A DNA stretch of 64,000 nucleotides from the human T2T-CHM13v2.0 reference genome, Homo sapiens. The position numbers were made by a program, and so were the translations under genes. Below, one piece after another: positions 2,801 through 64,000 of this stretch. The notes beneath the pieces are model-generated. The model did not search any database. It was not told the DNA's origin and saw only the letters and a list, made by a program, of their open reading frames with translations. The DNA is taken from assembly GCA_009914755.4 (NCBI GenBank), contig CP068257.2, positions 6,240,001 to 6,304,000 of the forward strand. The letters are read 5' to 3'. Position 1 is the stretch's first letter. Every line of letters begins with the position of its first letter.

Positions 2801-3452
2801 TGCTCACTGTTTGCTCCTGGAGCTCTGCGGGCACCAGCAAACATGCAGGGAAAGGTGGAAGACCGGCATGGTGCCTTCGCTCTCCTTGCCAGTTTCCAAA
2901 CCGGCCACACTGAATACTCCCCATGATGGCGCACACGGGAATCCATCGTCAGGCCATCACGCCGCGGAGGCATCTTCTCTCTGGGGTCTCACTCTGGTCT
3001 CCTACATGGAAATGAACGAGAGCCACAAGCCTGCATGTGTGAGACTGTCCCGGCAATAGCGAAACCTTCAGGCATTGCCTCCTTCACGGAGAGAGGGCCT
3101 GGAACTATCAATACTCCCACGGAGTTTCAGTTCCACACTCCCCTCCACCCTCTCTAGCCGGTTTCTCCCTGCTGAAGATCCGTGTGAGCCCAGAGAGCGG
3201 CTTCCAGTTCCCACGGGATTCCTGGAGAGGTCCGAAGAGCCAGCTCCCGAAACGCACACCCCTCACCCCTTCCCCCTCGCCCCCTTCCTCTTCGTCTCTC
3301 TGGCCCCACCACCAACCTCACCACGCCCTCCTCCCCACACCACCAGCCCCCGGCCGCAGGCCTCGACGCCCTGGGACCCTTCCAGGGCGGGGCAGGCTGT
3401 CCCAGGGCTCACCGCCATTCATGAAGGGGTGGAGCCTGCCTGCCTGTGGGCC

Positions 3453-3460
3453 TTTATAGG
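3453..3460 (+). promoter_or_regulatory. TATA-like box (tttatagg) about 140 bp upstream of the DUX4-like ATG of unit A
   Basis: Motif conserved at the equivalent position in units B, C, D, E and F. Corresponds to the position of the TACAA/TATA-type box described upstream of the DUX4 ORF in D4Z4. Confidence 0.3.
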
Positions 3461-3485
3461 AGCCGCTGGCTGGCTGTCCGGGTAG

Positions 3486-4861
<1,376 letters not shown>

Positions 4862-5565
4862 GACGCGGGGTTGGGACGGGGTCAGGTCTGGGCAGGGTGG
4901 TGGCCTCTTTTTCGCGGGGAACACCTGGCTGGCTATGGAGGGGCGTGTCTTCCCCCACCCCCTCCACTGGGCTGACCAGCCTGGGATTCCTGCCTTCTAG
5001 GTCTTGGCCCGGTGAGAGACTCCCCACAGCGGAGAACTGCCATTCTTTCCTGGGTTTCCTGGGGATCCCAGAGCCGGCCCAGATAGCAGCATGTAGGCCG
5101 CCTACTATGAAAGCACGGGTTTGCGGGCAGCCGCATGGGCTGTGGGAGCAGCCCGGGCAGAGCTCTCATGCCTTTCCACTACCCCACCCACGCCTGACCA
5201 CCCCATCCCCACCCCCACCCCCAACCCCCGGAAAATGCATCCTCCCCTGGGCTGGGTGTAGACCCCCGTCCCGGGAAACACCGGACCCAGGCAGCGTCCA
5301 GGCCTGACAACCCTCCAGTGGCTCGCCTCCTCTGCACCTCCGCGCCACTGTCGCCGGCCTGCCCATGCCCCTGCAGCATCCCAGCTACCACCATGGAGCT
5401 CCTGGCGGCGGAACGCAGACCTCTAGCTCTCTTTGCTGGCCTCCTGGCTAGACCTGTGCTCATTGCCCACCCCGGTTGACGTGCAACGGAGCCCGCTGGC
5501 CTCTCTGTGACCTTGTCCGTCTGTGAAATTCAGGCGGAGGCTCTCCCAACACCTTCCGACGCTCT

Positions 5566-8078
5566 TCCGTCAAAGCCTGGAAAATAGTTACATCTCCTGG
5601 ATGATCGTTTCAGAAATTTGTCACAATGCTCCCTCCCTGCAGAGTCTAGAGAAGATTTGCATCATTTGGGTGATCAGTGCAGAGATATATCACAATGTCC
5701 CCTGTACAAAAAGCCTGGAAATGGTTTACATCACCTCGGTGATCAGTGCATAGGTATGTCAGAAATCCCCAGTAGGCTGAACCTAGAAAAGTGTTGCATC
5801 ACTTAGGTGATCAGTGTAGTGATATGTGAAAATTCCCGTGCAGACAGAGCCTAGACAAGTGTTACACCACATAGTGATCAGTGCAGGGATAAGTCCTAAA
5901 GCTTCCTGTAGGCAGAGTGTAGACAACTGTTTCCTCCCTGTGGTGATCAGTGTAGTGATATGTCTCAAAGCCCCTGTAAGCAGAACCTTGACAAGGGTTA
6001 CATCACCTGTTAGATCAGTAGAAACGTATATCACAAAGCCCCCTGAAGGCAAAGCCCAGACAATTGTTACATCACCTGGGTGAGCAGTGGAGAGATCTGT
6101 CACAATGCCCCAGTAGGCAGAGCTTAGACAAGGGTTACATCACCTGGGTGATCAGTGTAGAGATATGTCAAAACGCTCCTGTAGTCTGAACCTAGACAGG
6201 AGTTACACCACCTGGGTTATCAGTGCAGAGATATGTGAGAATTCCCGTGTAGGCAGAGCCTGGACAAGTGTTACATCACCTAGGTTATCAGTGCAGGTAT
6301 AAGTCGTAAAGCCCCCTGTAGACAGAGCGTAGAAAAGAGTTTCTTTCCCAGGGTGATCAGTCCAGAGATGTGTCACAAAGCCCCTGTAGGCAGAGCCTAG
6401 ACAAGAGTTTCATCACTTGGTTGATCAGTTCAGAGATGTGTCACAATTTCCATGTAGGCAGATCTAAGACAAGAGTCCATTACCTGGGTGATCAGTGCAG
6501 AGATATGTCACAATGCCACTGTAGGCAGAGCCTAGACAAGAGTTACATGACTTAGGTGATCAGTGCAGAGATACATCGCAATGCCCCTGTAGCAGAGCCT
6601 TGACAATTGGTATATCACCTGGGTGATCATTGCAGGCAAATGTCACAAAGCACCCTGTAGGCAGATCCTAGAAAAGAGTTACATCACCTGGGTGATCAGT
6701 GCAGAGATATGTCATAATGCCACTGGAGGCAGAGCCTAGACAAGAGTTACATGACCTAGGTGATCAGTGCATATATACATCGCAATGCCCCTGTAAGCAG
6801 AACCTTAACAAGTGGTATATCACCTGGGTGATCATTGCAGTGATATGTCACAAAGCACCCTGTAGGCAGATCCTAGAGAAGAGTTATATCACCTGGGTGA
6901 TCAGTACAGAGATATGTCACAAGCCCCCTGTAGGCAGAGCCTAGACAAGAGTTATATCACCAGGGTGATCAGTGCAGTGATATGTCACAATGCCGTGTAG
7001 CCAGAGCCTAGACTAAAGTTACAGCACCTGGGAGGTCAGTGCAGAGATATGTCACAATGTCCCCAGTAGACACAGACCAGGCAAGAGTTGGATCACAGAG
7101 GGATCACTGCAGTGATATGTCTCAATCCCCCTGTGGGCATAACCTACACAAGAGTTACATCACCTCGGTTAACATTGCAGAGATATGTCAAAATGCCCCT
7201 GTAAGCAGAGCCTACACAAATGTTACATCACTTAGGTGATCAGTGCAGAGATATGTTACAATACCCCCTGTTAGCAGAGCCTAGACAAGAGTTGCATCAC
7301 CTGGGTGATCAGAGCAGAGATGTGTGACAAGGCTCCTTTAAGCAGAGCGTAGACAATAGTTACATCACCTGAGTGATCAGTGCAGAGATCTGTCACAATG
7401 CCCCTTTAGGCAGAGCTTAGACCAGAGTTACATCACCTGGGTGATCAGTGCAGTGATATTTCACAATGCCCCCATAGGCAAATTCAAGACAAGAGTCCGT
7501 CACTTGGGTGATCAGTGCAGAAATATGTGACCATGCCCCCTGTAGGCAGAGCCTAGAGAAGAGTCCCATCACCTGGGTAATCAGTGCAGAGATATTTCAC
7601 AATGCCCCTGCAGGCAGAGCATAAGCAAGAGTTACATCACCGAGAAGATCAGTGCAGAGATATGTCACAAGGCCCCCTATAGGCAGAGCTTGGACAAGAG
7701 TTACATCACCTTCGTGATCAATGCAGTTGTATGTCACTATGCCCCGTAGGCAGAGCCTAGTCAAGCGTTACATCACCTGGGTGATCAGTGCAGAGATATG
7801 TCACAAAGCTCCCATACATAGAGCCTAGACAAGAGTCGCATCACCTGGGTGATCAGTGCAGAAATATGTCACAATGCCCCCATAGGCAGATCCAACACAA
7901 GAGTTACATCACCTGGATGATCAGTGTAGAGATATGTCAAAAAGCCCCCACAGGCAGAACCTAGACAAAAGTCCCATCACCTGGGTGATCAGTGCAGAGA
8001 TATATCACAAAGCCCCTGTAGGCAGAGCCTAGACAAGGGTTACATCACTTTGTTGATCAGTTCAGAGATGTGTCATGC
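5566..8078 (+). repeat. Beta-satellite array (+ polarity)
   Basis: 68-bp tandem monomers. The first 0.6 kb is the conserved downstream flank shared by all cores (tgcataggtatgtcagaaatccccagtaggctgaacctag...). Confidence 0.9.
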
Positions 8079-8523
8079 TGACTGTTTGCTCCCGGAGCTC
8101 TGCAGGCATCTGGAAACATGCAGGGAAGGGTAGAAGACCGTCATGGTGCTTTCGCTCTCCTTGCCAGTTTCCAAACCAGCCACACTGTAGACTCCCCATA
8201 TTGCCCCACACGGGAATCCATCGTCAGGCCATCACGCCGGGGAGGCATCTTCTCTCTGGGGTCTCACTCTGGTCTCCTACGTGGAAATGAACGAGAGTCA
8301 CACGCCTGCGCATGGGAGACTGTCCCAGCAATGGCGACACCCACAGGCACTGACTACTTCACGGAGACACGGCCTGGAACACTCAAGACTCCCACGGAGG
8401 TTCAGTTCCACACCCCTCCACCCTCCCAGGCCGTTTTCTCCCTGCTCAAGATGCGTGGGAGCCCAGAGAGTGGCCTCCAGTTCCCGCGGGATTCCTGAAG
8501 TGGTCCGGAGAGCCAGCCCCTGA

Positions 8524-10128
<1,605 letters not shown>

Positions 10129-10838
10129 GTCGCTGGGTTGGGAAGGGGTTGGGTTGGAACAGGGCGGTGGCCTCCCTTTCGTGGCGAACACCTAGCTGGC
10201 TATGAAGGGGCGTGTCTTTCCCCGCCCCCTACACCAGGCTCACCGGCCTGGGATTCCTGCCTTCTTGGTCTACACCCGGTGAGAGACTCCACAGAGTGGA
10301 GAACTGCCATTCTTTCCTGGGCATCCCAGGGATCCCAGAGCCGGCCCAGGTACCAGCAGGTGGGCCGCCAACTGCGCATGCACGGGTTTGTGGGCAGCCG
10401 CCTGGCTGTGGGAGCAGCCTGGACAGAGCTCTCCTCTCTTTCCTCCACCCCACCCCCGCCTGACCAGCCCCTCCACACCCCCAACCCCCACCCCTGGAAA
10501 ATGCGTCCTCCCCTGGGCTGGGTGGAGACCCCCATCCCGCAAAACATCAGGCCCACGCAACGTCCAGGCCTGACACCCCTCCAGCGGCTCGCCTCCTCTG
10601 TGCCTCCATGCCACCATCACCGGCCTGCCCGTGCCCCTGCAGCCTCCCAGCTGCCACCATGGAGGGCCTGGCGGTGGAACCTCAACCTCTAGCTCTCTTT
10701 GCCGACCTCCTGGCTAGACCTGAGCTCATTGCGCACGCCGGCTGACGAGCAAGGGAGACCGCTGGCCTCTCTGTGCCCTTGTACATCCGTGAAATTGTGG
10801 CTGAGGCTCTCCCAACACCTTCCGACGCTCCTTGGTCA

Positions 10839-11218
10839 CAGCCTGCAGAATACTTACATCTCCTGGATGATCAGTTCAGAAATATGTCACAATGACCCCT
10901 CCCTGCGGAGCCCAGAGAAGATTTGCATCATTTGGGTGATCAGTGCAGAGATATTTCACAATGTCACCTGCAAAAAAAGCCTGGAAATGATTTATGTCAC
11001 CTCGGTGATCAGTGCATAGGTATGTCAGAAATCCCCAGTAGGCTGAACCTAGACAAGGGTTACATCACTTAGGTGAACAGTGTAGAGATATGTGAAAATT
11101 CCCGTGTAGACAGAGCCTAGACAAGAGTTACATCACCTAGTGATCAGTGCAGGGATAAGTCGTAAAGTCTCCTGTAGGCAGAGGGTAGAAAAGTGTTTCC
11201 TCCTTGGGGTGATCAGTG
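10839..11218 (+). repeat. Beta-satellite (+ polarity), the downstream flank of unit B cut short by an inversion junction
   Basis: Matches the first 365 bp of the flank that follows unit A. Ends at ...ggtgatcagtgc|ctactggagacattgtgacatatct, where the monomer polarity flips. Confidence 0.85.
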
Positions 11219-13664
<2,446 letters not shown>

Positions 13665-14374
13665 ACTAAAGAGTGTCGGAAGGTGTTGGGAGAGCCTCAG
13701 CTGGAATTTCACAGACGGACAAGGGCACCGAGAGGCCAGCGGGCTCCCTTGCACGTCAGCAGGTGTGCACAATAAGCGCAGGTCTAGCCAGGAGTCCGGC
13801 AAAGAGAGCTAGAGGTCTGCGTTCCGCCACCAGGCCCTCCATGGTGGCAGCTGGGAAACTGCAGGGTCACGGGCGGGCTGGCGATGGTGGCGCGGTGGCG
13901 CAGAGGAGGCGAGCCGCCGGAAGGGTGTCAGACCTGGACGCTGCAAGTGCCCGGTGTTTCGTGGGACGGGGGTCTCCACGTAGCCCAGGGGAGGATGCAT
14001 TTTACGTGGGTGCCGATGGGGGAGGGTATGGGTTGGTCAGGCGGGGGTGGGGTGGTGGAAAAGCATGAGAGCTCTGCCCTGGCTGCTCCCACTGCCCAGG
14101 CGGCTGCCCACAAACCCGCGCATGCGCAGTAGGCGTCCCATCTGCTGGTACCTGGGCCGGCTCTGGGATCTCCGGGATGCCCAGGAAAGAATGGCAGTTC
14201 TCCACTGTGTGGAGTCTGTCACCGGGCCTAGACTTAGAAGGCAGGAATCCCAGACCGGTGAGCCCAGTGTAGGGGGCGGGGGAAAGACACGCCCCTCCAT
14301 AGCCAGCCAGGTGTTCCCCGCGAAAAAGAGGCCACCGCCCTGCCCCGACCCGACACCGTCCCAACCCTGTGTCC

Positions 14375-15815
<1,441 letters not shown>

Positions 15816-16438
15816 TCATGAATGGCGGTGAGCCCTGGGACAGCCTGCCCCACCCCGGAAGGGTCCCAGGATGTCGAGGCCTGCGGCCGGGGGGTGGTGG
15901 GGTTTGGGGGAGGGCGTGGTGATGGTGGTGGTGGGGACAGAGGCACGAACAGGAAGGGGGCGAGGGGAAAGGGGTGAAGGGGGCGCTTTTTGGGGGCTGG
16001 CTCTCTGGACCTCTCTAGCAATCCCGCGGGAACTGGAAGCCGCTCTCTGGGCTCCCACGCATCTACAGCAGGGAGAAACCGGCCTGGGAGGGTGGTGGGG
16101 AGTGTGGAACTGAACCTCCGTGGGAGTCTTGAGGGTTCCAGGCCCACTCTCCGTGAAGGAGGCAGTGCCTGTGGGTGTTGCTGTTGTCTGGAAAGTCTCA
16201 CACACACAGGCCTGTGGCTCTCGTTCGTTTCCACGTAGGAGACCAGAGCGAGACCCCAGAGAGAAGATGCCCCCCCGGCGTGATGGTCTGACGATGGATT
16301 CCCGTTTGCGGCAAAATGGGGAGTCTGCAGTGTGGCCGGTTTGGAAACTGGCAAGGAGAGCGAAGGCACCATACCGGTCTTCCACCCTTCCCTGCATGTT
16401 TCCGGGTGCCCGCAGAGCTCCGGGAGCAACATTCAGCA

Positions 16439-19400
16439 TGACACATCTCTGAACTGATCAACAAAGTGATGTAACCCTTGTCTAGGCTCGGCCTACAGGG
16501 GCTTTGTGACATATCTCTGCACTGATCACCCAGCTGATGGGACGTTTGTCAAGGATCTGTCCATGGGGGCATTGTGACATATCTCTACACTGATCACCCA
16601 GGTGATGTAACTCTTGTGTAGTCTCTGCCTATGGGGGCATTGTGACTTATTCCTGCACTGATCACCCAGGTAATGGGACTCTTGTCTAGACTCTGTGTAT
16701 GGGGGCTTTGTGACATATCTCTGCATTGATCACCCAGGTGATGTAACGCTTGACTAGGCTCTGCCTACGGGGCATAGTGACATATCACTGCATTGATCAC
16801 CGAGGTGATGTAACTCTTGTCCAGATTCTGCCTATAGGGGACCTTGTGACATATCTCTGCACTGATCACGCAGGTCATGTAACACTTGCTTACCCTCTGC
16901 CTGCAGGGGCATTGTGAAATATCTCTGCACTGATCACCCAGGTGATGGGACTCTTCTCTAGGCTCTGCCTACTGGGGGCATTGTCACATATTTCTGCACT
17001 GATCACCCAGGTGATGGACTCTTGTCTTGGATTTGCCTATGGGGGCATTGTGACATATCTCTGCACTGACCACCCAGGTGATGTAACTCTGGTCTCAGCG
17101 CTGCCTAAAGGGGCATTGTGACAGATCTCTGCACTAATCACTCAGGTGATGTAACAATTGTCTAGGCTCTGTTTAAAGGGGCCTTGTCACATATCTCTGC
17201 ACTGATCACCCAGGTGATGTAACTCTTGTCTAGGCTCTGCTTACAGGGGGTATTGTGACATATCTCTGCACTGATAACCTAAGTGATGTAACACTTGTGT
17301 AGGCTCTGCATACAGGGGCATTTTGACATACCTCTGCACTGTTAACCAAGATGATGTAACTTTTGTCTAGGCTGTGTCCACAGGGGGATTGAGACAAATC
17401 TCTGCACTGATCTCGAGGTGATCCAACTCTTGCCTGGTCTCTGCCTACTCGGGATATTGTGACATATCTCTGCACTGATCTCCCAGGTGCTGTAACTTTA
17501 GTCTAGGCTCCGGCTACACGGCATTGTGACATATCACTGCAATAATCACCCAGGTGATATAACTCTTCTCTAGGCTCTGCCTACAGGGGTCTTGTGACAT
17601 ATATCTGCACTGACCACCCACGTGATGGGACGCTTCTCTAGGCTCTGCCAACAGTGGCATTGTGACATATCTGTGCACTGATCACCCAGCTGATGTAACT
17701 CTTTTCTAAGATCTGCCTACAGGGTGCTTTGTGACATATCCCTGCAATGATCACTCAGGTGATGTACCAATTTTCAAGGGTCTGCCTACAGGGACATTGC
17801 GATGAATCTCTGCACTGATCACCTAGCTCATGTAACTCTTGTCTAGGCTCTGCCTACAGTGGCATTGTGACATATCTATGCACTGATCCCCCAGGTGATT
17901 CGACTCTTGTCTAGAATCTGTCCACAGGGGATATTGTGAAATATCACTGCACTGATCAACTAGGTGGTGTAACTCTTGTCTACCCTCTGTCCAACGGGGT
18001 ATTGTGAAATATCTCTGCACTGATCACCATGGTGATTCAACTCTTGTCTAGGATCTGCCTACAGGGGGTATTGTGAAATATCTCTGCACTGATCAACTAG
18101 GTGGCGGAACTCTTATCTAGGCTCTGCCTACAGGGGCGTTTTCACATATCCCTAAACTGAAGACAAAGGTGATGTAACTCTTGCCTAGGCTTTGCCTACT
18201 GGGGACATTGTGACATATATCTGCACTGATCACCCAGGTGATGCAACTCTTGCCTAGGCTTTGCCTACAGGGGACATTGTGACATATTTCTGCACTGATC
18301 ACCCAGGTGATGCAACTCTTGCCTAGGCTTTGCCTACAGGGGACATTGTGACATATTTCTGCACTGATCACCCAGGTGATGCAACTCTTCTCTGTGCTCT
18401 GACTACAGGGGACATTGTGACATATCTCTGCACTGATCAACCGGGTGATGCAACTCTTCTCCATGCTCTGCCTACAGGGGGCATTGTGAGATATCTCTGC
18501 ACTGATCACCCAGGTGTTGTAACTCTTTTCTAGTCTCTACCTACAGAGGGTGTTCTGACATCACTCTGCAGAGATCACCCGGGATATCTAACTCTTGTCT
18601 AGGCTCTGCCTATGGGGGCATTGTGACTTATCTCTGCACTGATCACCCAGGAGATGTGACTCTTGTCTAAGCTCTGTCTAGAGGGACATTGGAACATATC
18701 TCTGCACTGATCGCTGAGGTGATGTAAAACTTCTCTACGCTTTGCCTAAAGTGGGATTTATGACATATCTCTGCACTGATCACCCAGGTGATATAACTCT
18801 TGTCTAGGCTCTGCCTACAGGGGGGCTTGTGACATATCTCTGCACTGATCACCCAGGTGATATAACTTTTCTCTAGGATCTGCCTACAGGGTACTTTGTG
18901 GCATATCCCTGCAATGATCACCCAGCTGATTTACCGCCTGTCAAGGCTCTGCCTACAGGGACATTGCGATGTATCTCTGCACTGATCACCTAGGTCATGT
19001 AACTCTTGTCTAGGCTCTGCCTACACTGGCATAGTGACATATCTCTGCACTGATCATCCAAGTGATGTAACATTTGTCTAGGATCTGCTTAAAGGGACTT
19101 TGTGACATAACTCTGCACTGATCATCCAGGTGATGGGGCTTTTCTCTAGGCTCTGCCTAAGGTGGCATTGTGAAATATTTCTGCACTGATCACCCAGGTG
19201 ACGGACTCTTGTCTTGGATCTGCCTATGGGCGCATTGTGACATATCTCTGCAGTGATCACCCTGGTGATATAACTGTTGTATAATCTCTGCCTACAGGGG
19301 AACTGTGAGAGATCTCTCCACTAATCACCCAAGTAAGGTAACTATTGTCTAGGCTTTGCCTACAGGGGGCTTTGTGATATACATTTGCACTGATCACCCA

Positions 19401-22024
19401 GGTGAAGTAACTCATCTAAATTGTGCCTACAGGAGCTTTGTGACATATCTCTGCACTGATCACCCAGGTGATGCAACTCTTCCCTATGCTCTGCCTACAG
19501 GAGGCATTTTGAAATATCTCTGCACTGATCACCCAGGTGATGTAACTCTTTTCTAGTCTCTACCTACAGAGGGTGTTCTGACATCACTCTGCAGAGATCA
19601 CCCGGGATATCTAACTCTTGTCTAGGCTCTGCCTATGGGGGCATTGTGACTTAGCTCTGCACTGATCACCCAGGAGACGTGTCTCTTGTCTAAGCTCTGC
19701 CTAGAGGGACATTGGGACATATCACTGCACTGATCACTGAGATGATGTAACTCATGTATAGGCTTCGCCTACAGGAGGCATTGAGACATATCTCTGCACT
19801 GATCACCGAGGTGATGCAACTCTTCTCTGGGATCTGCTTACAGGGGGCATTGTGACATATATCTGCCCTGATAACCCAGGTGAGGTAACTCTTGTCTAGG
19901 CTCTTCCTACTGGAGACATTGTGACATATGTCCGCACTGATCACCCAGGTGATGTCACTTTTGTCAAGGATATGGTTATAGGGATATTGTGACATGTCAC
20001 TGCACTGATCACACAGCTGATGTAACCCTTGTGTAGGCTCTGGATACAGGGGGTTGTGACACATCACTGCACTGATCACCCAGGTGATGTAACCCTTGTC
20101 TAGGCTCTGTCAAAAGGGGGCATTGTGACACAAGTCTGCACTGATCATCCAGGTGATGGGAGTCTTGTCTAGGCTCTGCCTACAGGGGCATTGTGACATA
20201 TCTCTGCAGTGATCACGCAGGTGATGTGACTCTTGTCTATATCTGCCTACTGGCGTCATTGTGGCATATTTCTGCACTGATCACCCAGGTGATGGACTCT
20301 TGTCTTGGATCTGCCTATAGGGGCATAGTGACATATCTCTACACTGATCACTCATGTGACGTAAGGCTTGTCTAAGCTGCACCTAAAGGGGAATTGTGAC
20401 AGATATTTCCACTGATCACCCAGGTGATGTAACAATTTTCTGGGATTTGTCTACAGGGGGCTTTGTGACATATCTTTGCACTGATCACCCAGGAGATGTA
20501 ATTCTACTCTAGGCTCGGCATACAGGGGCTTTGTGACATATTTCTGCACTGATCACCGAGTTGATGTAACTCTTGTCTAGTCTCCGCCTACAGGCGGTAT
20601 TGTGACGTATCTCTGCACTGGTCACCCAGGTGATGTAACATTTATCTAGGCTCTGCCTACTGCGGCGTTGTGACATAGCTCTGCACAGATCACCTAGGTT
20701 ATGTAACTCTTGTCCTCTCTCTGCCTACAGGGGGCATTGTGAAATATCTCTGCACTGATCACCCAGGTGATGGGACTCTTCTCTATACTCTGCCTAGAGG
20801 GGGATTTGTGACATATCTCTACACTGATCACCCATGTGATGGAAGCCTTGTCTAGGCTCTGTTTATGGGGGCATTGTGTCAAATGTCGGCACTGATCACC
20901 GAGGTGTTGTAACTCTTTTCTAAGCTCTGTCTACCGGGATTTTTGTGACATATCACTGCACTGATCACCTAGGTGATGTAAGCCTTGTGTGGGCTTTGCC
21001 TACAGAACGATTTGTGACATATCTATGCAATGATCTCTGAGGTGATGCAACTCTTGTCTAGGCACTGCCTACAAGGGACATTGGTACATATCTCTGCACT
21101 GATTACCCAGATGATGGACCCTTGTCTTAGATCTGCCTACATGGACATTGTGACACATCTCTGAACTGATCAATGAAGTGATGAAACTCTTGTCTAGGCT
21201 CTGCCTACAGGGGCTTTGTGACACATCTCTGCACTGATCACCCTGGGGAGGGAACTCTTGTCTACGCTCTGCCTACAGGAGGCTTTATGACTTATACCTG
21301 CACTGATAACCTAGCTGATATAACACTAGTCTAGGCTCTGCCTACACGGGAATTCTCACATATCTCTGCACTGATCACCCGGGTAATGTAACTCCTGCCT
21401 AGGTTCAGACTACAGGAGCGTTTTGACATATCTCTGCACTGATCACCCAGGTGATGTAACACTTGTCTAAGCTCTGCCTACAGGGGCATTGTGACAGATC
21501 TCTCCACTGCTCACCCAGGTGATGTAACAATTGTCTGGGCTTTGCCTGCCGGGGGATTTGTGATATACATTTCCACTGGTCAAACAGGTGATGTAACCCT
21601 TGTCAAGGTTCTGCTTACAGGGGCTTTGTGACATATCTCTGCACTGATCACCCCAGGGAGGAAACAATTGTCTACACTCTGCCTACAGGAGGCTTTACGA
21701 CTTATCCCTGCACTGATCACTAGGTGATGTAACACTTGTCTAGCCTCTGTATACACGGGAATTTTCACATATCTCTACACTGATCACCTAAGTGATGTAA
21801 CCCTTGTCTAGGTTCAGCCTACTGGGGATTTCTGACATACCTATGCACTGATCACCGAGGTGATGTAAATCATTTCCAGGCTTTTTGTAGAGGGGACATT
21901 GTGATATATCTCTGCACTGATCACCCAAATGATGCAAATCTTCTCTAGGCTCTGCAGGGAGGGGGCATTGTGACATATTTCTGAACTGATCATCCAGGAG
22001 ATGTAACTATTCTCCAGGCTTTGA
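16439..22024 (-). repeat. Beta-satellite array (- polarity)
   Basis: 68-69 bp monomers. Includes a run of 69-bp gatgcaactcttgcctaggc monomers with two perfect copies at 18241-18378. Confidence 0.9.
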
Positions 22025-22731
22025 CTAAAGAGTGTCGGAAGGTGTTGGGAGAGCCTCAGCCAGAATTTCACGGTGGACAAGGGCACAGAGAGGCCAGCTG
22101 CCTCCCTTGCAAGTCAGCTGGGGTGCGCAATGATCGCAGGTCTAGTCCGGAGGCCGGCAGAGACAGCTAGAGGTCTGAGTTCTGCCGCCAGGAGCTCCAT
22201 GGTGGCAGCTGGGAGGCTGCAGGGGCACGGGCGAGCCGGCGACGGTGGCGTGGAAGCACAGAGGAGGCGAGCCGCTGCAGGGGTATCAGGTCTGGACGCT
22301 GCGCGGGCCCGGTGTTTCACGGGTCGTGGGTCTCCACCGAGCCCAGAGGAGGATGCATTTTCCGGGGGTGGGGGGTGGGGGTGGTGAGGGAGTGGTCAGG
22401 CCGAGGTGGGGTGGTGGTAAGACATCAGGGCTCTGCCGGGTTGCTCCCACAGCCCATGTGGCTGTGCACAAACCTGTAAGTGTGCAGTAGGTGGCCCACC
22501 TGCTGGTACCTGGGCCGGATCAGGGATCCCCAGGATGCCCATGAAAGAATGGCAGTTCTCCGCTGTGTGGAGTCTCTCACTGGGCCCAGACCTAGATGGC
22601 AGGAATCCCAGGCTGTTCAGCTAGGTGAAGGGGGTTGTGGGAAGAGTTGCCCCTCCATAGCCAGCCAGGTGCTCCCCGTGATAGAGAGGCCACCACCCTG
22701 CCCCAACCCGACCCCATACCAACCACGCATC

Positions 22732-24014
<1,283 letters not shown>

Positions 24015-24134
24015 TCAGAATTTCACGGACGGACACGGGCAGAGAGAAGCCGCCGTGCTCCGTGCACCTCAGCCGGCCTGTGCACTGCGGCAGGAGCAGC
24101 CAGGAGGCCTGCCCTGACAGCCAGCCAGACGCTC

Positions 24135-24143
24135 TGATAAAGG
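24135..24143 (-). promoter_or_regulatory. Degenerate TATA-like box (tttatcag on the - strand) upstream of the unit D ORF
   Basis: Positional homologue of the box in the other units. The motif is mutated. Confidence 0.2.
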
Positions 24144-24786
24144 CCTGCAGGCAGGCATGCTCCACCCCTTGATGAATGGCGGTGAGTCCTGGGACAGACC
24201 GCCCACCCTGGAAGGGTCGCAGAGAGCCGAGGCCTGCTGGTGGTGTGGTGGGGGGAGAGGGTGTGGTGATGGTGGCGATCAGGCTGGAGAGCCTAAGAGG
24301 AAGGGGGCGAGGGGGAAGGGGTGAGGGGGCGCGTTTCTGGGGCTGGCTCTCCGGACCTCTCCAGGAATGCCGTGGGAACTGGAAGCCACTCTCTGGGCTC
24401 CCACGCATCTTCAGCAGGGAGAAACGGGACTGGGTGGGTAGAGGGAGTGTGGAACTCAACCTCCGTGGGAGTCTGGAGTGTTCCATGCCCTCTCTCCGTG
24501 AAGGAGGCAGTGCCTGTGGGTGTGGCCGTTGCCGGGACAGCCTCACACGCGCAGGCATGTGGCTCTCATTCATCAACACGTAGGAGACCAGAGCGAGACC
24601 CCAGAGAGAAGATGCCTCCCCGGCGTGATGGCCTGACGATGGACTACCGTGTGCAGCAACATGGGGAGTCTGCAGTGTGGCCGGTTTAGAAACTGGGAAG
24701 GAGAGCGAATGCACCATGCTGGTCTTCCACCCTTCCCTGCATGTTTCCGGGTGCCCGCAGAGCTCCGGGAGCAAACAGTCAGCATG

Positions 24787-27700
24787 ACACATCTCTGAAC
24801 TGATCAACAAAGTGATGTAACTCTTTTCTAGGCTCTGCCTAAAGGGGCTTTGTGACATAGCTGTGCACTGATCACTCAGGTGATGGGACTTTTGTCTAGG
24901 CTCTGCCTATGGGGGCATTGTGACATATCTCTAGACTGATCACCCAGGTGATGTAACCCTTGTGTTGGATCTGTTTATGGGGGCATTGTGACATATTTCT
25001 GCACTGATCACCCAGGTGATGGGTCTCTTATCTAGGTTCTGTGTATGGGTCCTTGTGACATAACTCTGCACTGATCACCCAGGTGATGTAACGCTTGACT
25101 AGGCTCTGCCTACGGGGCATAGTGACATATCACTGCATTGATTACTGAGGTGATGTAACTCTTGTCCAGGCTCTGCCTATAAGGGGCCTTGTGACATATC
25201 TCTGCACTGATCACCTAGGTGACGTAACACTTGCTTACACTCTGCCTGCAGGGGCATTGTGAAATATCTCTGCACTGATCACCCAGGTGATGGGACTCTT
25301 CTCTAGGCTCTGCCTACTGGGGGCATTGTCACATATTTCCGCACTGATCACCCAGGTGACGGACCCTTGTCTTGGATTTGCCTATGGGGGCATTGTGACA
25401 TATCTCTGCACTGATCACCCAAGTGATGTAACTCGGGACTAAGCTCTGCCTACAGGGGCATTTTGACAAATCTCTGCACTGTTAACCGAGGTGATGTAAC
25501 TCTTGTCTAGGCTGTGCCCACAGGGGTATTGAGACATGTCTCAGCACTGATCCCGAGGTGATCCAACTCTTGCCTGGTCTCTGCCTACTGGGGACATTGT
25601 GACATATCTCTGCACTGATCTCCCAGGTGCTGTAACTTTAGTCTAGGCTCTGTCTACACGGCATTGTGACATATCACTCCACTGATCACCCAGTTGATAT
25701 ACCTCTTGCCCAGGCTCTGCCTACTGGGGCCTTGTGACATATCTCTGCCCTGATCATCTAGGTGATGTAACTCTTGCTTACGCTCTGCCTGTTCGGGCAT
25801 TGTGAAATATCTCTGCATTGATCACCCAGGTGATGGGACTCTTCCCCAGGCTCTGCCTACTGGGGGATTGTCGCATATTTCTGCACTGATCACCCAGATG
25901 ACGGACTCTTGTCTTGGATTTACCTATGAGGGCATTGTGACAGATCTCTGCACTAGTCACTCAGGTGATGTAACTTTTGATTATGCTCTGCCTACAGGGG
26001 CTTTGTGACATATCTCTGCACTGATCACCCAGGTGATGTAACTGTTGTCTAGGCTCCACCTACAGGGGGTATTGTGACATATCTCTGCACTGATCACCAA
26101 GGTGATATAACTCTTCTCTAGGATCTGCCTACAGGGTGCTTTGTGACATATCCCTTCAATGATCACCCAGGTGACATACCAGTTGTCAAGGCTCAGCCTA
26201 CAGAGGCATTGCGATGTATCTCTGCAACAACCACCTAGGTAATGTAACTCTTGTCTGGGCTTTCCCTACAGTGGCATTGTGACATATCTCTGCACTGATC
26301 ACCCAGGTGATGTAACTCTTTTCTAGGATCTGCCTACAGGGTGCTTTGTGACATATCCCTGCAATGATCACCCAGGTGATGTACCAGTTGTCAAGGCTCT
26401 GCCTACAATGACATTGCGATGTATCTCTGAACTGATCACCTAGGTCATGTAACCCTTTTCTTGGCTCTGCCTAGAGTGGCATTGTGACATATCTATGCAC
26501 TGATCATCCAAGTGATGTAACATTTGTCTATGATCTGCCTAAAGGGTCTTTGTGACATAACTCTGCACTGATCATCCAGGTGATGGGGCTTTTGTCTAGG
26601 CTGTGCCTAAGGGGGAATTGTGACATGTTTTTGCACTGACCACCCAGGTGACGGACTCTTTTCTTGGATCTGCCTATGGGGGCATTGTGACATATCTCTG
26701 CATTGATCACCCGGGTGATGTAACTGTTGTATAAACTCTGCTGACAGGGGAATTGTGAGACATCTCGCCACTGATCACCCAACTGATGTATCTATTGTCT
26801 AGGCTTTGCCTACAGGGGGCTTTGAGACATACATTTTCACTGATCACCCAGGTGATGTAACTCATCTAAGTTCTGCCTACAGGAGCTTTGCGACATATTT
26901 CTGCACTGATGACTTAGGGGATGTAACACTATTATAAGCACTGCCTCCAGGGAATTTTGACAAATCTCTGCACTGATCACCTAGGTGATGAAACTCTTGT
27001 CTACACTCTGCCCAAATGGGGAATTGTGAAATATCTCTGCACGGATCACCCAGGTGATTCAACTCTTGTCTACGATCTGCCTACAGGGGGTATTGTGAAA
27101 TATCAATGCACTGATCAGCTAGGTGATGTAACACTTGTCAACCTCTGTCTACAGGGGAGTTTACACATATCCCTGAACTGATGACACAGGTGATGTAACT
27201 CGTGCCTAGGCTTTGCCTACAGGGGACACTGTGACATATCTCTGCACTGATCCCCCAGGTGATGCAACTATTCTCTATGATCTGCCTACAGGGGAAATTG
27301 TGACATAACTCTGCACTTATCACCCAGGTGATGCAACGCTTCTCTATGCCCTTCCTACAGGGGGTATTGTGACATATCTCTGCACTGATCACCCAGGTGT
27401 TGTAACCCTTTTCTAGTCTCTGCCTATGGCGGGCGTTGTGAATCACTCTGCACGGATCACCCGGGTTATGTAACTCTTGTCTAGGCTCTGCCTATAGGCG
27501 CTTTGTGACTTATCACTGCACTGATCACCCAGGAGATGTGACTCTTGTCTAAGCTCTGCCCAGAGGGACATTGGGACATATCTCTGCACTGATCGCTGTG
27601 GTGATTTAAAACTTGTCTAGGCTTTGCCTACAGTGGGATTTATGACATATCTCTGCGCTGATCACCCAGGTGATGTAACTCTTGTCTAGGCTGTGCTTAC

Positions 27701-28855
27701 AGGGGGTATTGTGAGATATCTCTGCACTGATCACCCAGGCGATGTAACTCTTTTCTAGGCTCTGTGTACAGGGATTTTTGTGACATACCACTGCACTGAT
27801 CACTTGGTGATGTAAGCCTTGTATGGGCTTTGCGTACAGAAGGCTTTGTGACATATCTATGCACTGATCTCTAAGGTGATGCAACTCTTGTCTAGGCATT
27901 GCCTACAGGGGACATTGGTACATATCTCTGCACTGATCACCCAGGTGATTGACTCTTGTCTTAGATCTGCCTACATGGAAGTTGTGACACATCTCTGAAC
28001 TGATCAACCAAGTGATGAAACTCTTGTCTAGGCTCTGCCTACCGGGGCTTTGTGACACATCTCTGCACTGATCTCCCTTGGGAGGAAACTCTTATCTACG
28101 CTCTGCCCACAGGAGGCCTTATGACTTATACCTGCACTGATAACGTAGGTGATGTAACAGTTGTCTAGACTCTGCCTAAACGGGAATTCTCTCATATCTC
28201 TTCACTGATCACCTGGGTGATGTAACTCCTGTCTAGGTTCAGCCTACAGGAGCATTTTGACATATCTCTACACTGATCACCCAGGTGATGTAACCCTTGT
28301 CTAAGCTATGCCTACAGGGCTATTGTGAAACGTCTCTCCACTGTTCACCCAGGTGATGTAATAATTGTCTGGGCTTTGCCTACAGGGGGCTTTGTGATAT
28401 ACATTTCCACTGATCAAACAGGTGATGTAACCCTTGTCAAGGTTCTGCTTACAGGGGCTTTGTGACATTACTCTGCACCGATCACCCCAGGGAGGAAACA
28501 GTTTTCTAAACCCTGCCTATAGAAGGATTTATGACTTATCCCTGCACTGATCACTAGGTGATGTAACACTTGTCTAGGGTCTGTCTACACGGGAATTTTC
28601 ACATATCTCTACACTGATCATCTAAGTGATGTAACCCTTGTCTAGGTTCAGGCTGCTGGGGATTTCTGACATACCTATGCACTGATCACCGAGGTGATGT
28701 AAATCATTTCCAGGTTTATTGTACAGCGGACATTGTGATATATCTCTCCACTGATCACCCAAATGATGCAAATCTCTAGGCTCCGCAGGGAGGAGCATTG
28801 TGACATATTTCTGAACTGATCGTCCAGGAGATATAACTATTCTCCAGGCTTTGAC
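24787..28855 (-). repeat. Beta-satellite array (- polarity)
   Basis: 68-bp tandem monomers. The first 0.9 kb matches the conserved upstream flank of the other cores. Confidence 0.9.
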
Positions 28856-29562
28856 TAAACAGCGTTGGAAGGTGTTGGGAGAACCTCAGCGGGAATTTCA
28901 CGGACCGACAAGGGCACAGAGAGAACTGAGACCTCCCTTGCACGTCAGCCAGGGTGCTCAATGAGCGCAGGTCTAGCCAGGAGGCTGTCAAAGAGAGCTA
29001 GAGGTCTGGTTTCTGCCGCCAGGTGGTCCATGGTGGCAGCTGGGAGGCTGCAGAAGCACGGGCGCGACAGTGACGGTGGCGCGGAGCCGCAGAGGCGGCA
29101 AGCCGCCGGAGGGGTGTGAGGCCTGGAGGCTGCGCGGTACCGGTGTTTCACGGGACGGGGGTCTCCACCCAGCCCAGGGGAGGATGCATTTTCCTGGGCT
29201 GGAGTGTGGGTGTGGGGAGGGGGTGATCAGGCGGGGTGGGGTGGTGGAAAGGCATGAGAACACTGCCTGGGCTGCTCCCACAGCCCAGGCGACTGCCCGC
29301 AATCCCTCGCGTGCACAGTAGGCGGCCAACCTGCTGGTATCTGGACTGGCTCTGGGATCCCCGGGATGCCCAGGAAAGAATGGCAGTTCTCCGCTGGGTG
29401 GAGCCTCTCACCAGGCCTAGACCTAGAAGGCAGGAATCCCAGGCCGGTCAGCCTGGTGGATGGGGCGGGGGGAAGACACGTCCCTCCATAGCCAGCCAGG
29501 TGTTCCCCGGGAAACACAGGCCACCGCCCTGCCCCGACCCGACACCTTCCCAACCCCGCGTC

Positions 29563-31002
<1,440 letters not shown>

Positions 31003-31628
31003 TCACGAATGGTTGTGAGCCCTCGGACAGCCCGCCCCACCACGGAAGGATCCCAGGGCCTCGAGTCCTGTGGCAGGGGTGTGGTGGAGTGGGGTGGGAG
31101 GGCGTGGTGATGGCCGTGGTGGGGCCGGAGACACGAAGAGGAAGTGGGAGAGGGGGAAGGTGTGGGGCGGGGGCGTTTCAGGCGCTGGCTCTTAGGACTG
31201 CTCCAGGAATCCCGAGGGAACTGGAAGCCACTCTCTGGGCTCCCATGCGTCTTCAGCAGGGAGAAACCGGCCTGCGAGGGTGGAGGGGAGTGTAGAACTG
31301 AATATCCATGGGAGTCTTGAGTGTTCCAGGCCCTCTCTCCGTGAAGGAGGCAGTGCCTGTGGGTGTCGCCATTGCCAGCGCAGTCTCACAAAGGCAGGCG
31401 TTTGGCTCTCGTTCATTTCCACGTTGGAGACCAGAGCCAGACCCCAGAGAGAAGATGCCTCCACGGCGTGATGGCCTGACGATGGATTCCTGTGTGCGGC
31501 AACATGGGAAGTCTGCAGTGTGGCCGGTTTGGAAACTGGCAAGAGAGCGAAGGCACCATACCAGTCTTCCACCCTTCCCTGCATGTTTCCGGGGGCCTGC
31601 AGAGCTCCGGGAGCAAACAGTCAGCATG

Positions 31629-39312: not shown

Positions 39313-40010
39313 ACTAAAGAGAGTCGGAAGGTGTTCGGAAAGCCTCAGCCAGAATTTCACTGACGGACAGGGGCACAGAGAGGTCAGCGGGCTCCCTTGC
39401 ACGTCAGCCGGGGTGCACAATGAGCGCAGGTCTAGCCAGGAGGCCGGCAAAGAGAGTTAGAGGTTTGCGTTCCGCCACCAGTCGTTCCATGGTGGCAGCT
39501 GGGAGGCTGCTGGGGTACGGGCGGGCCGCTGACGGTATCGCGGGGGCGCAGAGTAGGCGAGCCGCCGGAGGGGTGTCAGGCCCGGACGCTGTGCGGGTCC
39601 GGTGTTTCACAGGACATGGGTCTCACCCAGCCCAGGGGAGGACGCATTTTCTGAGGGTTGGGGGTGGGGTGGGGTGGGGATCGTCAGGCGGGGGTGGGGT
39701 GGTGGAAAGGCATGAGAGCTCTGCCTGGGCTGTTCCCACAGCAAAGGCGGCTGCCCGCCTACCCGCACGTGCGCAGTAGGCGGCCCACTTGCTGGTACCT
39801 TGGCCGGCTCTGTGGTCCCCAGGATGCCTAGGAAAGAATAGCAGTTCTCCCCTTTGTGGAGCGTCTCACCGGGCCTAGACCTAGAAGGCAGGAATCTCAG
39901 GCCAGTCAGCCCGGTGGAGGTGGTGGGAGGAAGACACGCCCCTCCATAGCCAGCCAGTTGTTCCCCATTAAGCAGAGGCCACCGCCCTGCCCCGACCCGA
40001 CCCCGTCCCA

Positions 40011-41460
<1,450 letters not shown>

Positions 41461-53759: not shown

Positions 53760-55658
<1,899 letters not shown>

Positions 55659-63893: not shown

Positions 63894-64000
63894 TTTTCCG
63901 GGCAGACCTCCTGGCTGCACCTGCTGCAGTGCACAGGCCGGCTGAGGTGCACGGGAACCCGCGGGCTGGCGGAGCTCTGCGGGCACCCGGAAACATGCAG
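63894..64000 (+). repeat. Start of another D4Z4-like core (+ polarity) with a rearranged 5' junction
   Basis: The satellite ends at ...gcagagatatgg. Next comes a 70-bp fragment homologous to the promoter region (ggcagacctcctggctgcacctgctgcagtgcacaggccggctgaggtgcacggga). Then ggagctctgcgggcacccggaaacatgcag, which is the normal core 5' end. Confidence 0.55.

What the first reader, a model, noticed from the sequence alone, without database searches (positions are those of the whole stretch)
16439..17300. The duplicated unit is a composite duplicon: conserved ordered satellite-variant series flank every core
For at least 0.8 kb on the 5' side of each core the same succession of idiosyncratic monomers recurs. 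Examples are ...gcctacggggcatagtgacatatcactgcattgatcac... and ...ggtgatggactcttgtcttggatttgcctatgggggcattgtgac.... It is seen at 16439-17300 (unit C), 24787-25650 (D), 31629-? (E), 42085-42900 (F), 51126-51760 (G), and as the reverse complement before units A and B. The 3' flank (tgcataggtatgtcagaaatccccagtaggctgaacctag...) recurs for at least 0.5 kb at 5566, 10839 and 55659, and as the reverse complement at 13100, 21470, 28300, 38760, 49700 and 53500. A further recurring block of 69-bp gatgcaactcttctctatgc monomers appears at about 374-650, 18180-18540, 27180-27450, 33400-33700, 37440-37650, 43220-43500, 45000-45100, 47460-47650, 57100-57380 and 62960-63250. So amplification acted on segments larger than the 2.8-kb core, with variable satellite expansion or contraction between them.
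Basis: seen in the sequence. Interest (0 to 1): 0.5.

Follow-up and report, generated by a model that had tools for sequence, protein, structure and literature searches.

The report
D4Z4-like plus beta-satellite composite repeat
This is primate heterochromatin in which a dead DUX4-like (D4Z4/LSau) element and about 75-80 beta-satellite monomers in a fixed order were copied together as one unit of about 8 kb; this composite repeat is already catalogued, so the finding is correct but ordinary.

Summary
The window is 68/69-bp beta satellite interrupted by 2.77-kb GC-rich cores: six full, one internally deleted, one broken by an inversion, one cut by the window end. Both core/satellite junctions are base-for-base the same in every unit except the rearranged last one. 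In-register flank monomers are 91-93% identical, against 76% for random monomer pairs. The conserved order covers the whole inter-core satellite, not just 0.5-0.8 kb. It follows one series of about 73-82 monomer types. 441 of 647 adjacent type pairs recur at least 3 times, against about 5 in shuffles. Shorter intervals are in-register deletions; longer ones are partial re-duplications without a core. The 69-bp "gatgcaactcttctctatgc" block is one type in this series.

The core is a 5'-truncated D4Z4-like unit carrying a DUX4-like double-homeobox pseudogene. Its consensus matches the T2T-CHM13 "LSAU-BSAT composite" subunit consensus sequences at 98-99%. The same idea was published for the Y-linked DUXY locus (2009) and the T2T repeat catalogue (2021/22). 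It is therefore already known, and interest is low.

The parts
2801..5566 (+). Core A: 5'-truncated D4Z4-like (LSau) unit. DUX4-like pseudogene at about 3594-4861.
   Evidence: blastn to core C 86.1% over 2772 nt. tblastn with recalled DUX4 maps to core positions 794-2025. 5 stops.
8076..10830 (+). Core B: D4Z4-like unit. DUX4-like pseudogene from about 8866, with TTG in place of ATG and frameshifts.
13669..16438 (-). Core C: D4Z4-like unit. DUX4-like pseudogene at about 15644-14391.
   Evidence: ORF 14802-15572(-) matches PDB DUX4 6e8c at E=2e-61. Pfam Homeodomain, two stretches, E=3.6e-20. Stops at codons 23 and 283.
22028..24784 (-). Core D: D4Z4-like unit (pseudogene)
28858..31626 (-). Core E: D4Z4-like unit. 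Full-length DUX4-like reading frame at about 30831-29566, with 3 premature in-frame stops before the terminal stop.
   Evidence: (82.5% aa identity over 424 aa)
39317..42082 (-). Core F: D4Z4-like unit (pseudogene)
50264..51123 (-). Core G: D4Z4-like unit with an internal 1.9-kb deletion. Keeps positions 1-663 and 2565-2770 in ORF orientation; the DUX4-like ORF is lost.
53763..55338 (-). Core H: 3' 1.58 kb of a D4Z4-like unit, ending at an inversion breakpoint
55336..55653 (+). Core H': last 318 bp of a D4Z4-like unit in the opposite orientation. The junction with H at 55336-55338 is an inversion breakpoint, not a palindrome.
63891..64000 (+). Start of unit I, with an aberrant 5' junction: satellite, then core positions 671-746, then core from position 18. 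Cut by the window end.
16439..22027 (-). Reference inter-core satellite between C and D: 82 monomers, a nearly complete ordered series. It runs from the 5'-flank types (Aa Ab Ad Ae Af ...) to the 3'-flank types (... Bk Aa Bl Bm Bn Ag Bo Bp Bq Br Bs Bt Bu Ce).
1..2800 (+). 5' flank of A: 42 monomers, series types Aa-Bh in order, one monomer fewer than in C
5567..8075 (+). A-B interval of 37 monomers. 3' flank of A is 5567-6510 (series positions 69-82). 5' flank of B is 6511-8075. The middle of the series, about 45 monomers, is deleted in register.
10831..11218 (+). 3' flank of B, 5-6 monomers, cut by the orientation switch at 11217-11219
11219..13668 (-). Satellite on the other side of the switch. 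12520-13668 is the 3' flank of C: 17 monomers, 0.937 identity to the reference series.
24785..28857 (-). D-E interval of 60 monomers. 5' flank of D, with a 3-monomer deletion after monomer 10. 3' flank of E at 27781-28857.
31627..39316 (-). E-F interval of 113 monomers. The 5' flank of E is rearranged after its first monomer. The series is partly re-duplicated without a core. 3' flank of F at 38713-39316.
42083..50263 (-). F-G interval of 120 monomers. 5' flank of F collinear for 8-9 monomers. The mid-series is repeated about 2.5 times. 3' flank of G at 49184-50263.
51124..53762 (-). G-H interval of 39 monomers. 5' flank of G, collinear with C for about 20 monomers, then a jump to the last 3 monomers of the series (53568-53762).
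55654..63890 (+). H'-I interval of 121 monomers. 3' flank of H' at 55654-57078 (21 monomers). Two coreless joins of series end to series start, at about 59257-59392 and 62253-62458. 5' flank of I at 63556-63890.
18349..18486 (-). Example of the 69-bp 'gatgcaactcttctctatgc' monomers, type Ba x2. There are 23 Ba monomers in 12 places, always in the context Ax Ay Az Ba Ba Bb Bc Bd Be.

Best explanation
The window is a piece of a hominid LSAU/beta-satellite composite satellite (a 'beta-composite array'). This is heterochromatin of the kind found on acrocentric short arms and in pericentromeric transition regions.

An ancestral unit of about 8.4 kb was amplified in tandem as a whole. It consisted of a 2.77-kb 5'-truncated D4Z4-like core, with a DUX4-like retrogene copy and a pLAM-like 3' end, joined at fixed points to about 75-82 beta-satellite monomers of 68/69 bp in a fixed order. 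Amplification was most likely by unequal exchange between sister chromatids or homologues, or by replication-based duplication.

The copies then decayed independently:
- CpG-driven decay destroyed all the DUX4-like ORFs.
- Misaligned but in-phase exchange between beta-satellite monomers deleted or re-duplicated parts of the monomer series. This gave core-to-core spacings of 3.5 to 10.9 kb and some coreless repeats.
- At least two orientation switches and two core rearrangements followed.

Shown here: the anatomy, the shared junctions, the ordered series, the star-like divergence and family membership. Inferred: the recombination mechanism, the single-burst timing and the chromosomal location. 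No cellular function is implied, and the DUX4-like genes here are dead.
For: Core identity:
- DUX4 double homeodomain: PDB 6e8c E=2e-61; Pfam Homeodomain, two stretches.
- A recalled DUX4 sequence aligns over 411-424 aa in five of the six full cores and in two overlapping segments spanning 1-424 in D, at core positions about 794-2061.
- All copies carry stops or frameshifts.

Family membership:
- The six-copy core consensus matches T2T-CHM13 COMP-subunit_LSAU-BSAT family-1 (99.2% of 399 nt), family-10 (98.3% of 117 nt) and family-4 (98.5% of 399 nt). Family-5403 is absent.
- The satellite is 68/69 bp, with GATCAGTGC in 352 of 644 monomers.

Co-amplification:
- Identical 5' and 3' junction sequences in all units but I.
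- The junction monomer is always 56-59 bp.
- In-register flank identity is 0.91-0.93, against 0.76 background and against shifted registers.
- There is one ordered series of about 70 monomer types across all ten satellite segments. 441 of 647 adjacent type pairs recur, against 4.7 in shuffles.
- Self-alignments of 4-5.4 kb span flank, core and flank.

Burst and decay:
- Pairwise identities are uniform for cores (0.838-0.862) and for flanks.
- 705 singleton sites, against 2-11 sites shared by any one pair of cores.
- CpG columns are 67% identical against 89% for other columns.

Literature:
- Beta-composite arrays, and more than 200 inversion breakpoints in beta-satellite arrays.
- LSAU-BETA composite on 16 chromosomes, with 80-95% identity in centromere transition arrays.
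- A 5'-truncated D4Z4-pLAM copy is the commonest form, with 319 copies.
- At the DUXY locus, length variation is restricted to beta satellite, and genes and satellites evolved in concert.
Against: - Cores are more diverged than the satellite flanks (85% against 91-93%).
- Per site class the core is still about 1.4 times more diverged: AT sites 4.7% against 3.1%, non-CpG GC sites 6.8% against 5.0%. Base composition therefore does not explain all of the difference. Part is selection bias from clustering, and the rest is unexplained.
- Transition:transversion is about 0.9 at non-CpG sites. This is unusual for mammalian neutral decay.
- Species and chromosome could not be determined with the collections available.
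- The orientation switches at 11217-11219 and 55336-55338 cannot be explained by one simple two-break inversion.
Confidence: 0.9

Rival explanations
1. A beta-satellite higher-order repeat existed first. D4Z4-like cores then inserted independently, by transposition or retrotransposition, at the same preferred site in each repeat.
For: The ordered monomer series also occurs without cores, at the coreless joins near 59257-59392 and 62253-62458.
Against: - Both junctions are identical to the base in seven to nine units.
- There is no target-site duplication and no poly(A) tail.
- 11 nt of the interrupted monomer are missing in every copy.
- The coreless joins are not the empty site Ce|Aa. They join Bm to Ac and Bg to Ac, as expected from deletion by misaligned exchange.
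- The core has no mobile-element features.
- Cores and flanks show the same star-like pattern.
Confidence: 0.03
2. Only the cores were amplified. The flank similarity arose afterwards, by gene conversion or homogenisation among the satellite monomers next to the cores.
For: Flanks are more alike (91-93%) than cores (85%). Whole-flank identities first looked structured, for example C-D 93.4% against C-F 83.9%.
Against: - The apparent structure disappears when only collinear monomers are compared: sd 0.010-0.014. It came from deletions and insertions, not from substitutions.
- Conversion would not create identical junction breakpoints, or a 70-type order extending more than 5 kb from the cores.
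- Most of the core/flank difference follows CpG and GC content.
Confidence: 0.04
3. The similarity is no more than generic monomer similarity in the array, or it is an assembly artefact that duplicated segments.
For: Any two stretches of the array align at about 81%.
Against: - In-register identity exceeds shifted registers by 5-35 points.
- Bigram recurrence is 441 against a maximum of 18 in shuffles.
- Copies differ by 7-15%, with CpG-biased substitutions. They are therefore old paralogues, not collapsed or duplicated reads.
Confidence: 0.01

Closest known systems
LSAU-BSAT (LSAU-BETA) composite repeat of T2T-CHM13 (Hoyt et al., bioRxiv 10.1101/2021.07.12.451456), also called 'beta-composite arrays' (Altemose et al., 10.1101/2021.07.12.452052)
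   Same: - D4Z4/LSau-derived subunits family-1, -4 and -10 are present in the published order and orientation at 98-99% consensus identity.
- The cores alternate with 68-bp beta satellite.
- Within-array identity of 83-93% fits the 80-95% reported for arrays in centromere transition regions.
- Orientation switches fit the reported inversion-rich beta-satellite arrays.
   Different: Nothing defining differs.
- This window is the form without subunit 5403.
- I did not find the monomer-resolution order of the beta-satellite part (about 73-82 types) spelled out in the texts I could read. Figures were not available.
Human and chimpanzee Yq11 DUXY locus (Schmidt et al. 2009, PMC2671837)
   Same: - An imperfect tandem repeat of LSAU cores carrying DUX4-related genes, spaced by 68-bp beta-satellite blocks.
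- Length variation is restricted to the satellite.
- That paper concludes genes and satellites were amplified together as a cassette and changed by unequal crossing-over.
   Different: - DUXY has four units with block sizes of 125-7709 bp. Here there are at least nine units with blocks of 37-121 monomers.
- The DUXY block sizes do not match, so this is a different locus.
Distal end of the 4qA D4Z4 array: last partial D4Z4, then pLAM, then beta satellite (FSHD locus)
   Same: A 126-nt stretch of pLAM/DUX4 exon 3, recalled from memory, aligns across every core|satellite 3' junction here at 77-83%. This junction is therefore the same as the 4qA one. It agrees with the report that the 5'-truncated D4Z4-pLAM copy is the commonest dispersed form.
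   Different: - 4q/10q D4Z4 units are 3.3 kb, nearly identical, directly head-to-tail and carry an intact DUX4 ORF.
- Here the units are 2.77 kb, about 15% diverged, separated by 2.5-8 kb of satellite, and all ORFs are broken.
- The position of the 4qA ATTAAA poly(A) signal reads ATGTCACA here.
Alpha-satellite higher-order repeats
   Same: Monomers that are only about 76% alike recur in a fixed multi-monomer order. Copies of the same position are much more alike, at 92%.
   Different: - The monomer family is different, and the period is far longer (about 75-82 monomers plus a non-satellite core).
- Inter-copy identity is 91-93% rather than 95-100%, so this is an old array that is no longer being homogenised.

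Membership tests
Beta satellite (Sau3A family, BSR) | Tandem monomers of about 68 bp | tested here: met
   TRF period 68 across all arrays. Wrap-around alignment gives 657 monomers, of which 301 are 68 bp, 237 are 69 bp and 82 are 67 bp.
Beta satellite (Sau3A family, BSR) | Conserved GATCAGTGC block and a Sau3A (GATC) site in most monomers, as cited in PMC2671837 | tested here: met
   GATCAGTGC is exact in 352 of 644 monomers. GATC is present in 548 of 644.
LSAU-BSAT / LSAU-BETA composite (T2T-CHM13 repeat catalogue) | Contains composite subunits family-1, family-4 and family-10 | tested here: met
   Published consensus excerpts against the six-copy core consensus: 99.2% of 399 nt, 98.5% of 399 nt and 98.3% of 117 nt. 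Each individual core matches at 89-96%.
LSAU-BSAT / LSAU-BETA composite (T2T-CHM13 repeat catalogue) | Optional subunit family-5403 (variant form) | tested here: not met
   No hit of the 399-nt excerpt anywhere in the window. The window is therefore the form without 5403, which the catalogue lists as one of its two forms. This does not exclude membership.
LSAU-BSAT / LSAU-BETA composite (T2T-CHM13 repeat catalogue) | LSau/D4Z4-like elements interspersed with beta-satellite blocks, arrayed | tested here: met
   Nine or more cores alternate with satellite blocks of 6-121 monomers.
LSAU-BSAT / LSAU-BETA composite (T2T-CHM13 repeat catalogue) | Location on acrocentric short arms or in pericentromeric transition regions of a hominid genome | not testable with these tools
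   No primate genome collection was available. Only the 80-95% within-array identity reported for transition-region arrays is consistent with this window.
D4Z4 macrosatellite / DUX4 gene family | Double-homeobox (DUX4-type) coding sequence | tested here: met
   PDB DUX4 6e8c E=2e-61 over both homeodomains. Pfam PF00046, two stretches. 62-83% aa identity to recalled DUX4 across the six full cores, full length or nearly so in five.
D4Z4 macrosatellite / DUX4 gene family | 3.3-kb unit repeated directly head-to-tail | tested here: not met
   Units are 2755-2770 bp and are separated by 2.5-8.2 kb of beta satellite. About 0.8 kb lies upstream of the ATG. This fits the 5'-truncated dispersed form described in PMC10620044.
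D4Z4 macrosatellite / DUX4 gene family | Intact DUX4 open reading frame | tested here: not met
   Every full copy has premature stops and/or frameshifts (2-5 stop symbols in the frame read from the start). B and D have also lost the ATG. G has lost the ORF by deletion.
Higher-order repeat in the strict alpha-satellite sense | Ordered set of diverged monomers repeated as a block | tested here: met
   Ordered series of about 70 types. Bigram recurrence 441 of 647, against 4.7 in shuffles.
Higher-order repeat in the strict alpha-satellite sense | Near-identity (about 95-100%) between copies of the block | tested here: not met
   Same-type monomers average 91.8%. In-register flanks are 0.89-0.96 identical.

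The most novel reading that the evidence does not exclude
The beta-satellite part of this composite may not be a loosely variable spacer. It may be a single fixed 'super-repeat' of about 75-82 distinguishable monomers which, with the D4Z4-pLAM core, formed one unit of about 8.4 kb that expanded in a single burst. All later length variation would then be reducible to a handful of in-phase deletions and duplications. If this monomer-resolution model is not already in the T2T figures or supplements, it would give a coordinate system for tracing how D4Z4-like cassettes, including the pLAM/poly(A) junction used in FSHD, spread among chromosomes.
Probability: 0.3. Interest if true: 0.3.

Novelty: already known. 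Interest (0 to 1): 0.15.

Why it matters
It matters mainly as a correct annotation. The 'cores' are dispersed, dead D4Z4/DUX4-like units, and the duplicon is the catalogued LSAU/beta-satellite composite.

These arrays have practical relevance:
- They confound FSHD diagnostics and Cas9 or nanopore targeting of D4Z4 (PMC10620044).
- They are hotspots of inversion and copy-number change on acrocentric arms.

The monomer-type series derived here is a usable ruler for describing such rearrangements. It does not reveal a new kind of element or mechanism.

Tried and rejected
1. Core/flank discordance. Whole-flank global alignments suggested that flanks have a structured tree (C-D 93%, F 84%, E 78%) while cores are star-like. 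That would have meant separate histories. I rejected this. Restricting to collinear monomers makes the flanks star-like too, so the structure came from indels of whole monomers.

2. Composition as the full explanation for cores being more diverged than flanks. This is only partly true. After splitting sites into CpG, GC and AT classes, the core is still about 1.4 times more diverged.

3. H/H' as a palindrome. Rejected: there is no mirror symmetry around 55336-55338. The two orientation switches do not fit one simple two-break inversion either.

4. Rfam scan of the whole window, prompted by the MIR8078 link mentioned for LSAU composites. No family reached its gathering score.

5. Mapping every interval to the 82-monomer reference interval by best hit. 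This works, but the result is fragmented because the reference contains internal duplications. The cluster-label strings are the clearer representation.

6. The protein and structure database tools, and the phage, plasmid and E. coli collections, were not used. They cannot inform a primate satellite.
Full report
**What is in the window**

Tandem Repeats Finder shows a 68-bp satellite over most of the 64 kb. It is interrupted by GC-rich (about 65%) segments.

blastn with the segment 13669-16438 defines the cores:
- Six full cores of 2755-2770 bp: A 2801-5566, B 8076-10830, C 13669-16438, D 22028-24784, E 28858-31626 and F 39317-42082.
- G, 50264-51123, which has a 1.9-kb internal deletion.
- H, 53763-55338, a core broken by an orientation switch and fused to the inverted H' at 55336-55653.
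- The start of a further unit at 63891.

The cores are only 84-86% identical to each other and have very few indels. The satellite changes strand at 11217-11219. Core-to-core spacings are 5275, 8359, 6830, 10459, 10947 and 3499 bp.

**Checking the observation**

*5' flank.*
All out-of-register placements in the array give about 81%.
The first 5'-flank string lies 323-325 bp from the core edge in five units.

*Monomer decomposition.*
- I cut the satellite into 657 monomers by wrap-around alignment to the consensus. I then compared them column by column.
- In-register identity exceeds identity at register shifts of 1-3 monomers for about 9-13 monomers on the 5' side. On the 3' side it does so for about 17 monomers.
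- For strictly collinear monomers, pairwise identity is 0.911 +/- 0.010 (5' monomers 1-6) and 0.931 +/- 0.014 (3' monomers 1-9). The mean over all monomer pairs is 0.758.

*3' flank.* The 3' string lies 176-182 bp from the edge in all nine units.

*Exceptions.*
- Unit E shares only its first 5' monomer before a local rearrangement.
- The 3' flank is cut to 0.39 kb at B by the orientation switch.
- The 3' flank is only about 0.2 kb at H.

**The order extends over the whole satellite**

Average-linkage clustering at 12% distance gives 70 monomer types with at least three members, covering 564 of the 657 monomers. Written as type strings, all ten satellite segments follow one series:

Aa Ab Ac Ad Ae Af Cf Bj As Ag Ah Bf Ai Aj Ak Al Am An Ao Ap Aq Ar As At Ch Au Av Aw Ax Ay Az Ba Ba Bb Bc Bd Be Bf Cr Ci Cj Bg Bh Bv Bw Ck Cl As Cm Cn Co By Cp Bz Cq Ca Cb Cc Cd Bk Aa Bl Bm Bn Ag Bo Bp Bq Br Bs Bt Bu Ce, then the core.

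- The 82-monomer interval 16439-22027 is almost the full series.
- The 37-, 39- and 60-monomer intervals are the same series with in-register internal deletions.
- The 113-121-monomer intervals repeat parts of it without a core.
- Two coreless joins of series end to series start lie at about 59257-59392 and 62253-62458.
- 441 of 647 adjacent type pairs belong to bigrams seen at least three times. In 500 label shuffles the mean is 4.7 and the maximum 18.
- Same-type monomers are 91.8% identical. Neighbouring monomers are 76.6% identical.
Two occurrences were missed, at 19441 and at 35372-35509.
- Self-alignment finds blocks of 4-5.4 kb at 86-87% that run through flank, core and flank. An example is 12089-17489 against 20446-25832.

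**The junctions**

In gene orientation the 5' junction reads ...GTTACATCACTTTGTTGATCAGTTCAGAGATGTGTCA|TGCTGACTGTTTGCTCCCGGAGC. It is the same in A-G. The 3' junction reads ...CTCCCAACACCTTCCGACGCTCTT|TAGTCAAAGCCTGGAGAATAGTTACATC. It is the same in all nine units.

- The junction monomer is always truncated to 56-59 bp.
- Eleven bases of the monomer are missing.
- There is no target-site duplication and no poly(A) tail.

All units therefore descend from one junction-forming event. Only unit I differs: its order is satellite, then core 671-746, then core from position 18.

**What the core is**

- The ORF 14802-15572(-) contains two homeodomains (Pfam PF00046, E=3.6e-20). It matches the solved DUX4 double homeodomain (6e8c, E=2e-61).
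- A DUX4 protein sequence recalled from memory aligns over 411-424 residues at 63-83% identity in five of the six full cores. In D it aligns in two overlapping segments spanning residues 1-424. The ORF lies at core positions about 794-2061.
- Every copy has premature stops and/or frameshifts (2-5 stop symbols in the frame read from the start), and two have lost the ATG.
- The majority consensus of the six cores matches the published T2T-CHM13 consensus excerpts for COMP-subunit_LSAU-BSAT family-1, family-10 and family-4. The identities are 99.2%, 98.3% and 98.5%. Family-5403 is absent.
- A recalled 126-nt stretch of 4qA pLAM/DUX4 exon 3 aligns across each 3' junction at 77-83%. The core therefore ends like the distal 4qA D4Z4-pLAM-beta-satellite junction.
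- The satellite carries the beta-satellite hallmark GATCAGTGC in 352 of 644 monomers.

**History**

- Cores are star-like. There are 705 singleton columns, against 2-11 columns shared by any particular pair.
- In-register flanks are equally uniform.
- CpG columns are 67% identical and other columns 89%.
- Consensus GC is 69.6%, against 65% in the copies.
- Per site class, the core is about 1.4 times more diverged than the typed satellite monomers. Part of this is clustering bias and part is unexplained.

This fits amplification of the whole unit in one period, followed by independent, methylation-driven decay and occasional in-phase unequal exchange within the satellite.

**Comparison with what is known**

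[quoted passage not shown] They also report more than 200 inversion breakpoints in beta-satellite arrays of chr1 and the acrocentrics.
- Hoyt et al. catalogue the LSAU-BETA composite on 16 chromosomes, in forms with and without subunit 5403. Arrays in centromere transition regions show 80-95% identity.
- Butterfield et al. report that a 5'-truncated D4Z4-pLAM copy is the commonest dispersed form, with 319 copies on the acrocentrics and pericentric chr1.
- Schmidt et al. (2009) described the same architecture at the Y-linked DUXY locus. Length variation there is confined to beta satellite. They concluded that genes and satellites were amplified together and changed by unequal crossing-over.

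**Verdict**

- The element is a member of a known, catalogued composite satellite.
- Novelty: already known. Interest: low.

Species (human or another great ape) and chromosome could not be determined with the available collections.

Noticed in passing
window 14391-15644 (-), and equivalent positions in cores A, B, D, E and F: Each 2.77-kb core carries a DUX4-like double-homeobox pseudogene (PDB DUX4 E=2e-61). Every copy is disrupted by premature stops and/or frameshifts. Key homeodomain residues are mutated in core C, for example QIWFQN to QIRFQN and QKSFQN.
   Followed up: yes
window 11217-11219 and 55336-55338: Two orientation switches bracket a 44-kb segment. One is satellite-to-satellite. 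The other joins core position 1578 to inverted core position 318 (core C coordinates). The junction is not a palindrome, and the pair cannot be explained by one simple two-break inversion.
   Followed up: partly
window 50264-51123 (unit G) and 63891-64000 (unit I): G lacks core positions 664-2564 in ORF orientation. I starts with a 76-bp fragment of core positions 671-746 placed in front of core position 18. Both breakpoints fall at about 663-671, next to a roughly 100-bp internal direct repeat of the core (about 80% identical to a copy near 2640-2735). This may be a recombination hotspot.
   Followed up: partly
window about 59257-59392 and 62253-62458: Coreless joins, where the end of the monomer series runs back into its beginning (Bk Aa Bl Bm .. 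Ac Ad, and Cj Bg .. .. Ac). These are units that lost the core plus adjacent monomers by misaligned exchange. Type Aa occurs on both sides of the core and may have mediated one of them.
   Followed up: partly
3' junctions, e.g. window 21943-22069 (-), 39232-39358 (-), 55612-55738 (+): A 126-nt 4qA pLAM/DUX4 exon 3 sequence recalled from memory aligns across the core|satellite boundary at 77-83%. Its distal two-thirds align to the first, truncated beta-satellite monomer and the start of the next. The position of the FSHD-permissive ATTAAA poly(A) signal reads ATGTCACA here, which is the ordinary beta-satellite sequence. This needs checking against the reference pLAM sequence.
   Followed up: partly
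all six full cores and the typed satellite monomers: The substitution spectrum relative to consensus is odd. Outside CpG, transitions:transversions are about 0.7-1.1, with many C>A/G>T changes and a strong G/C to A/T bias. There are also very few indels: 7-30 gap columns per 2.77-kb pair, despite about 15% divergence.
   Followed up: no
cores against in-register flanks: Cores (85% pairwise) are more diverged than their co-amplified satellite flanks (91-93%). CpG and GC content explain most of the excess but not all of it. AT sites differ at 4.7% against 3.1% from consensus.
   Followed up: partly
window 16439-22027 and elsewhere: Short local tandem duplications lie inside the series: An Ao Ap repeated (205-bp period), Ba x2-3, Cg x2, and Ba Bb Bc Bd repeated in the reference interval. 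These explain the 137- and 205-bp periods reported by Tandem Repeats Finder.
   Followed up: partly
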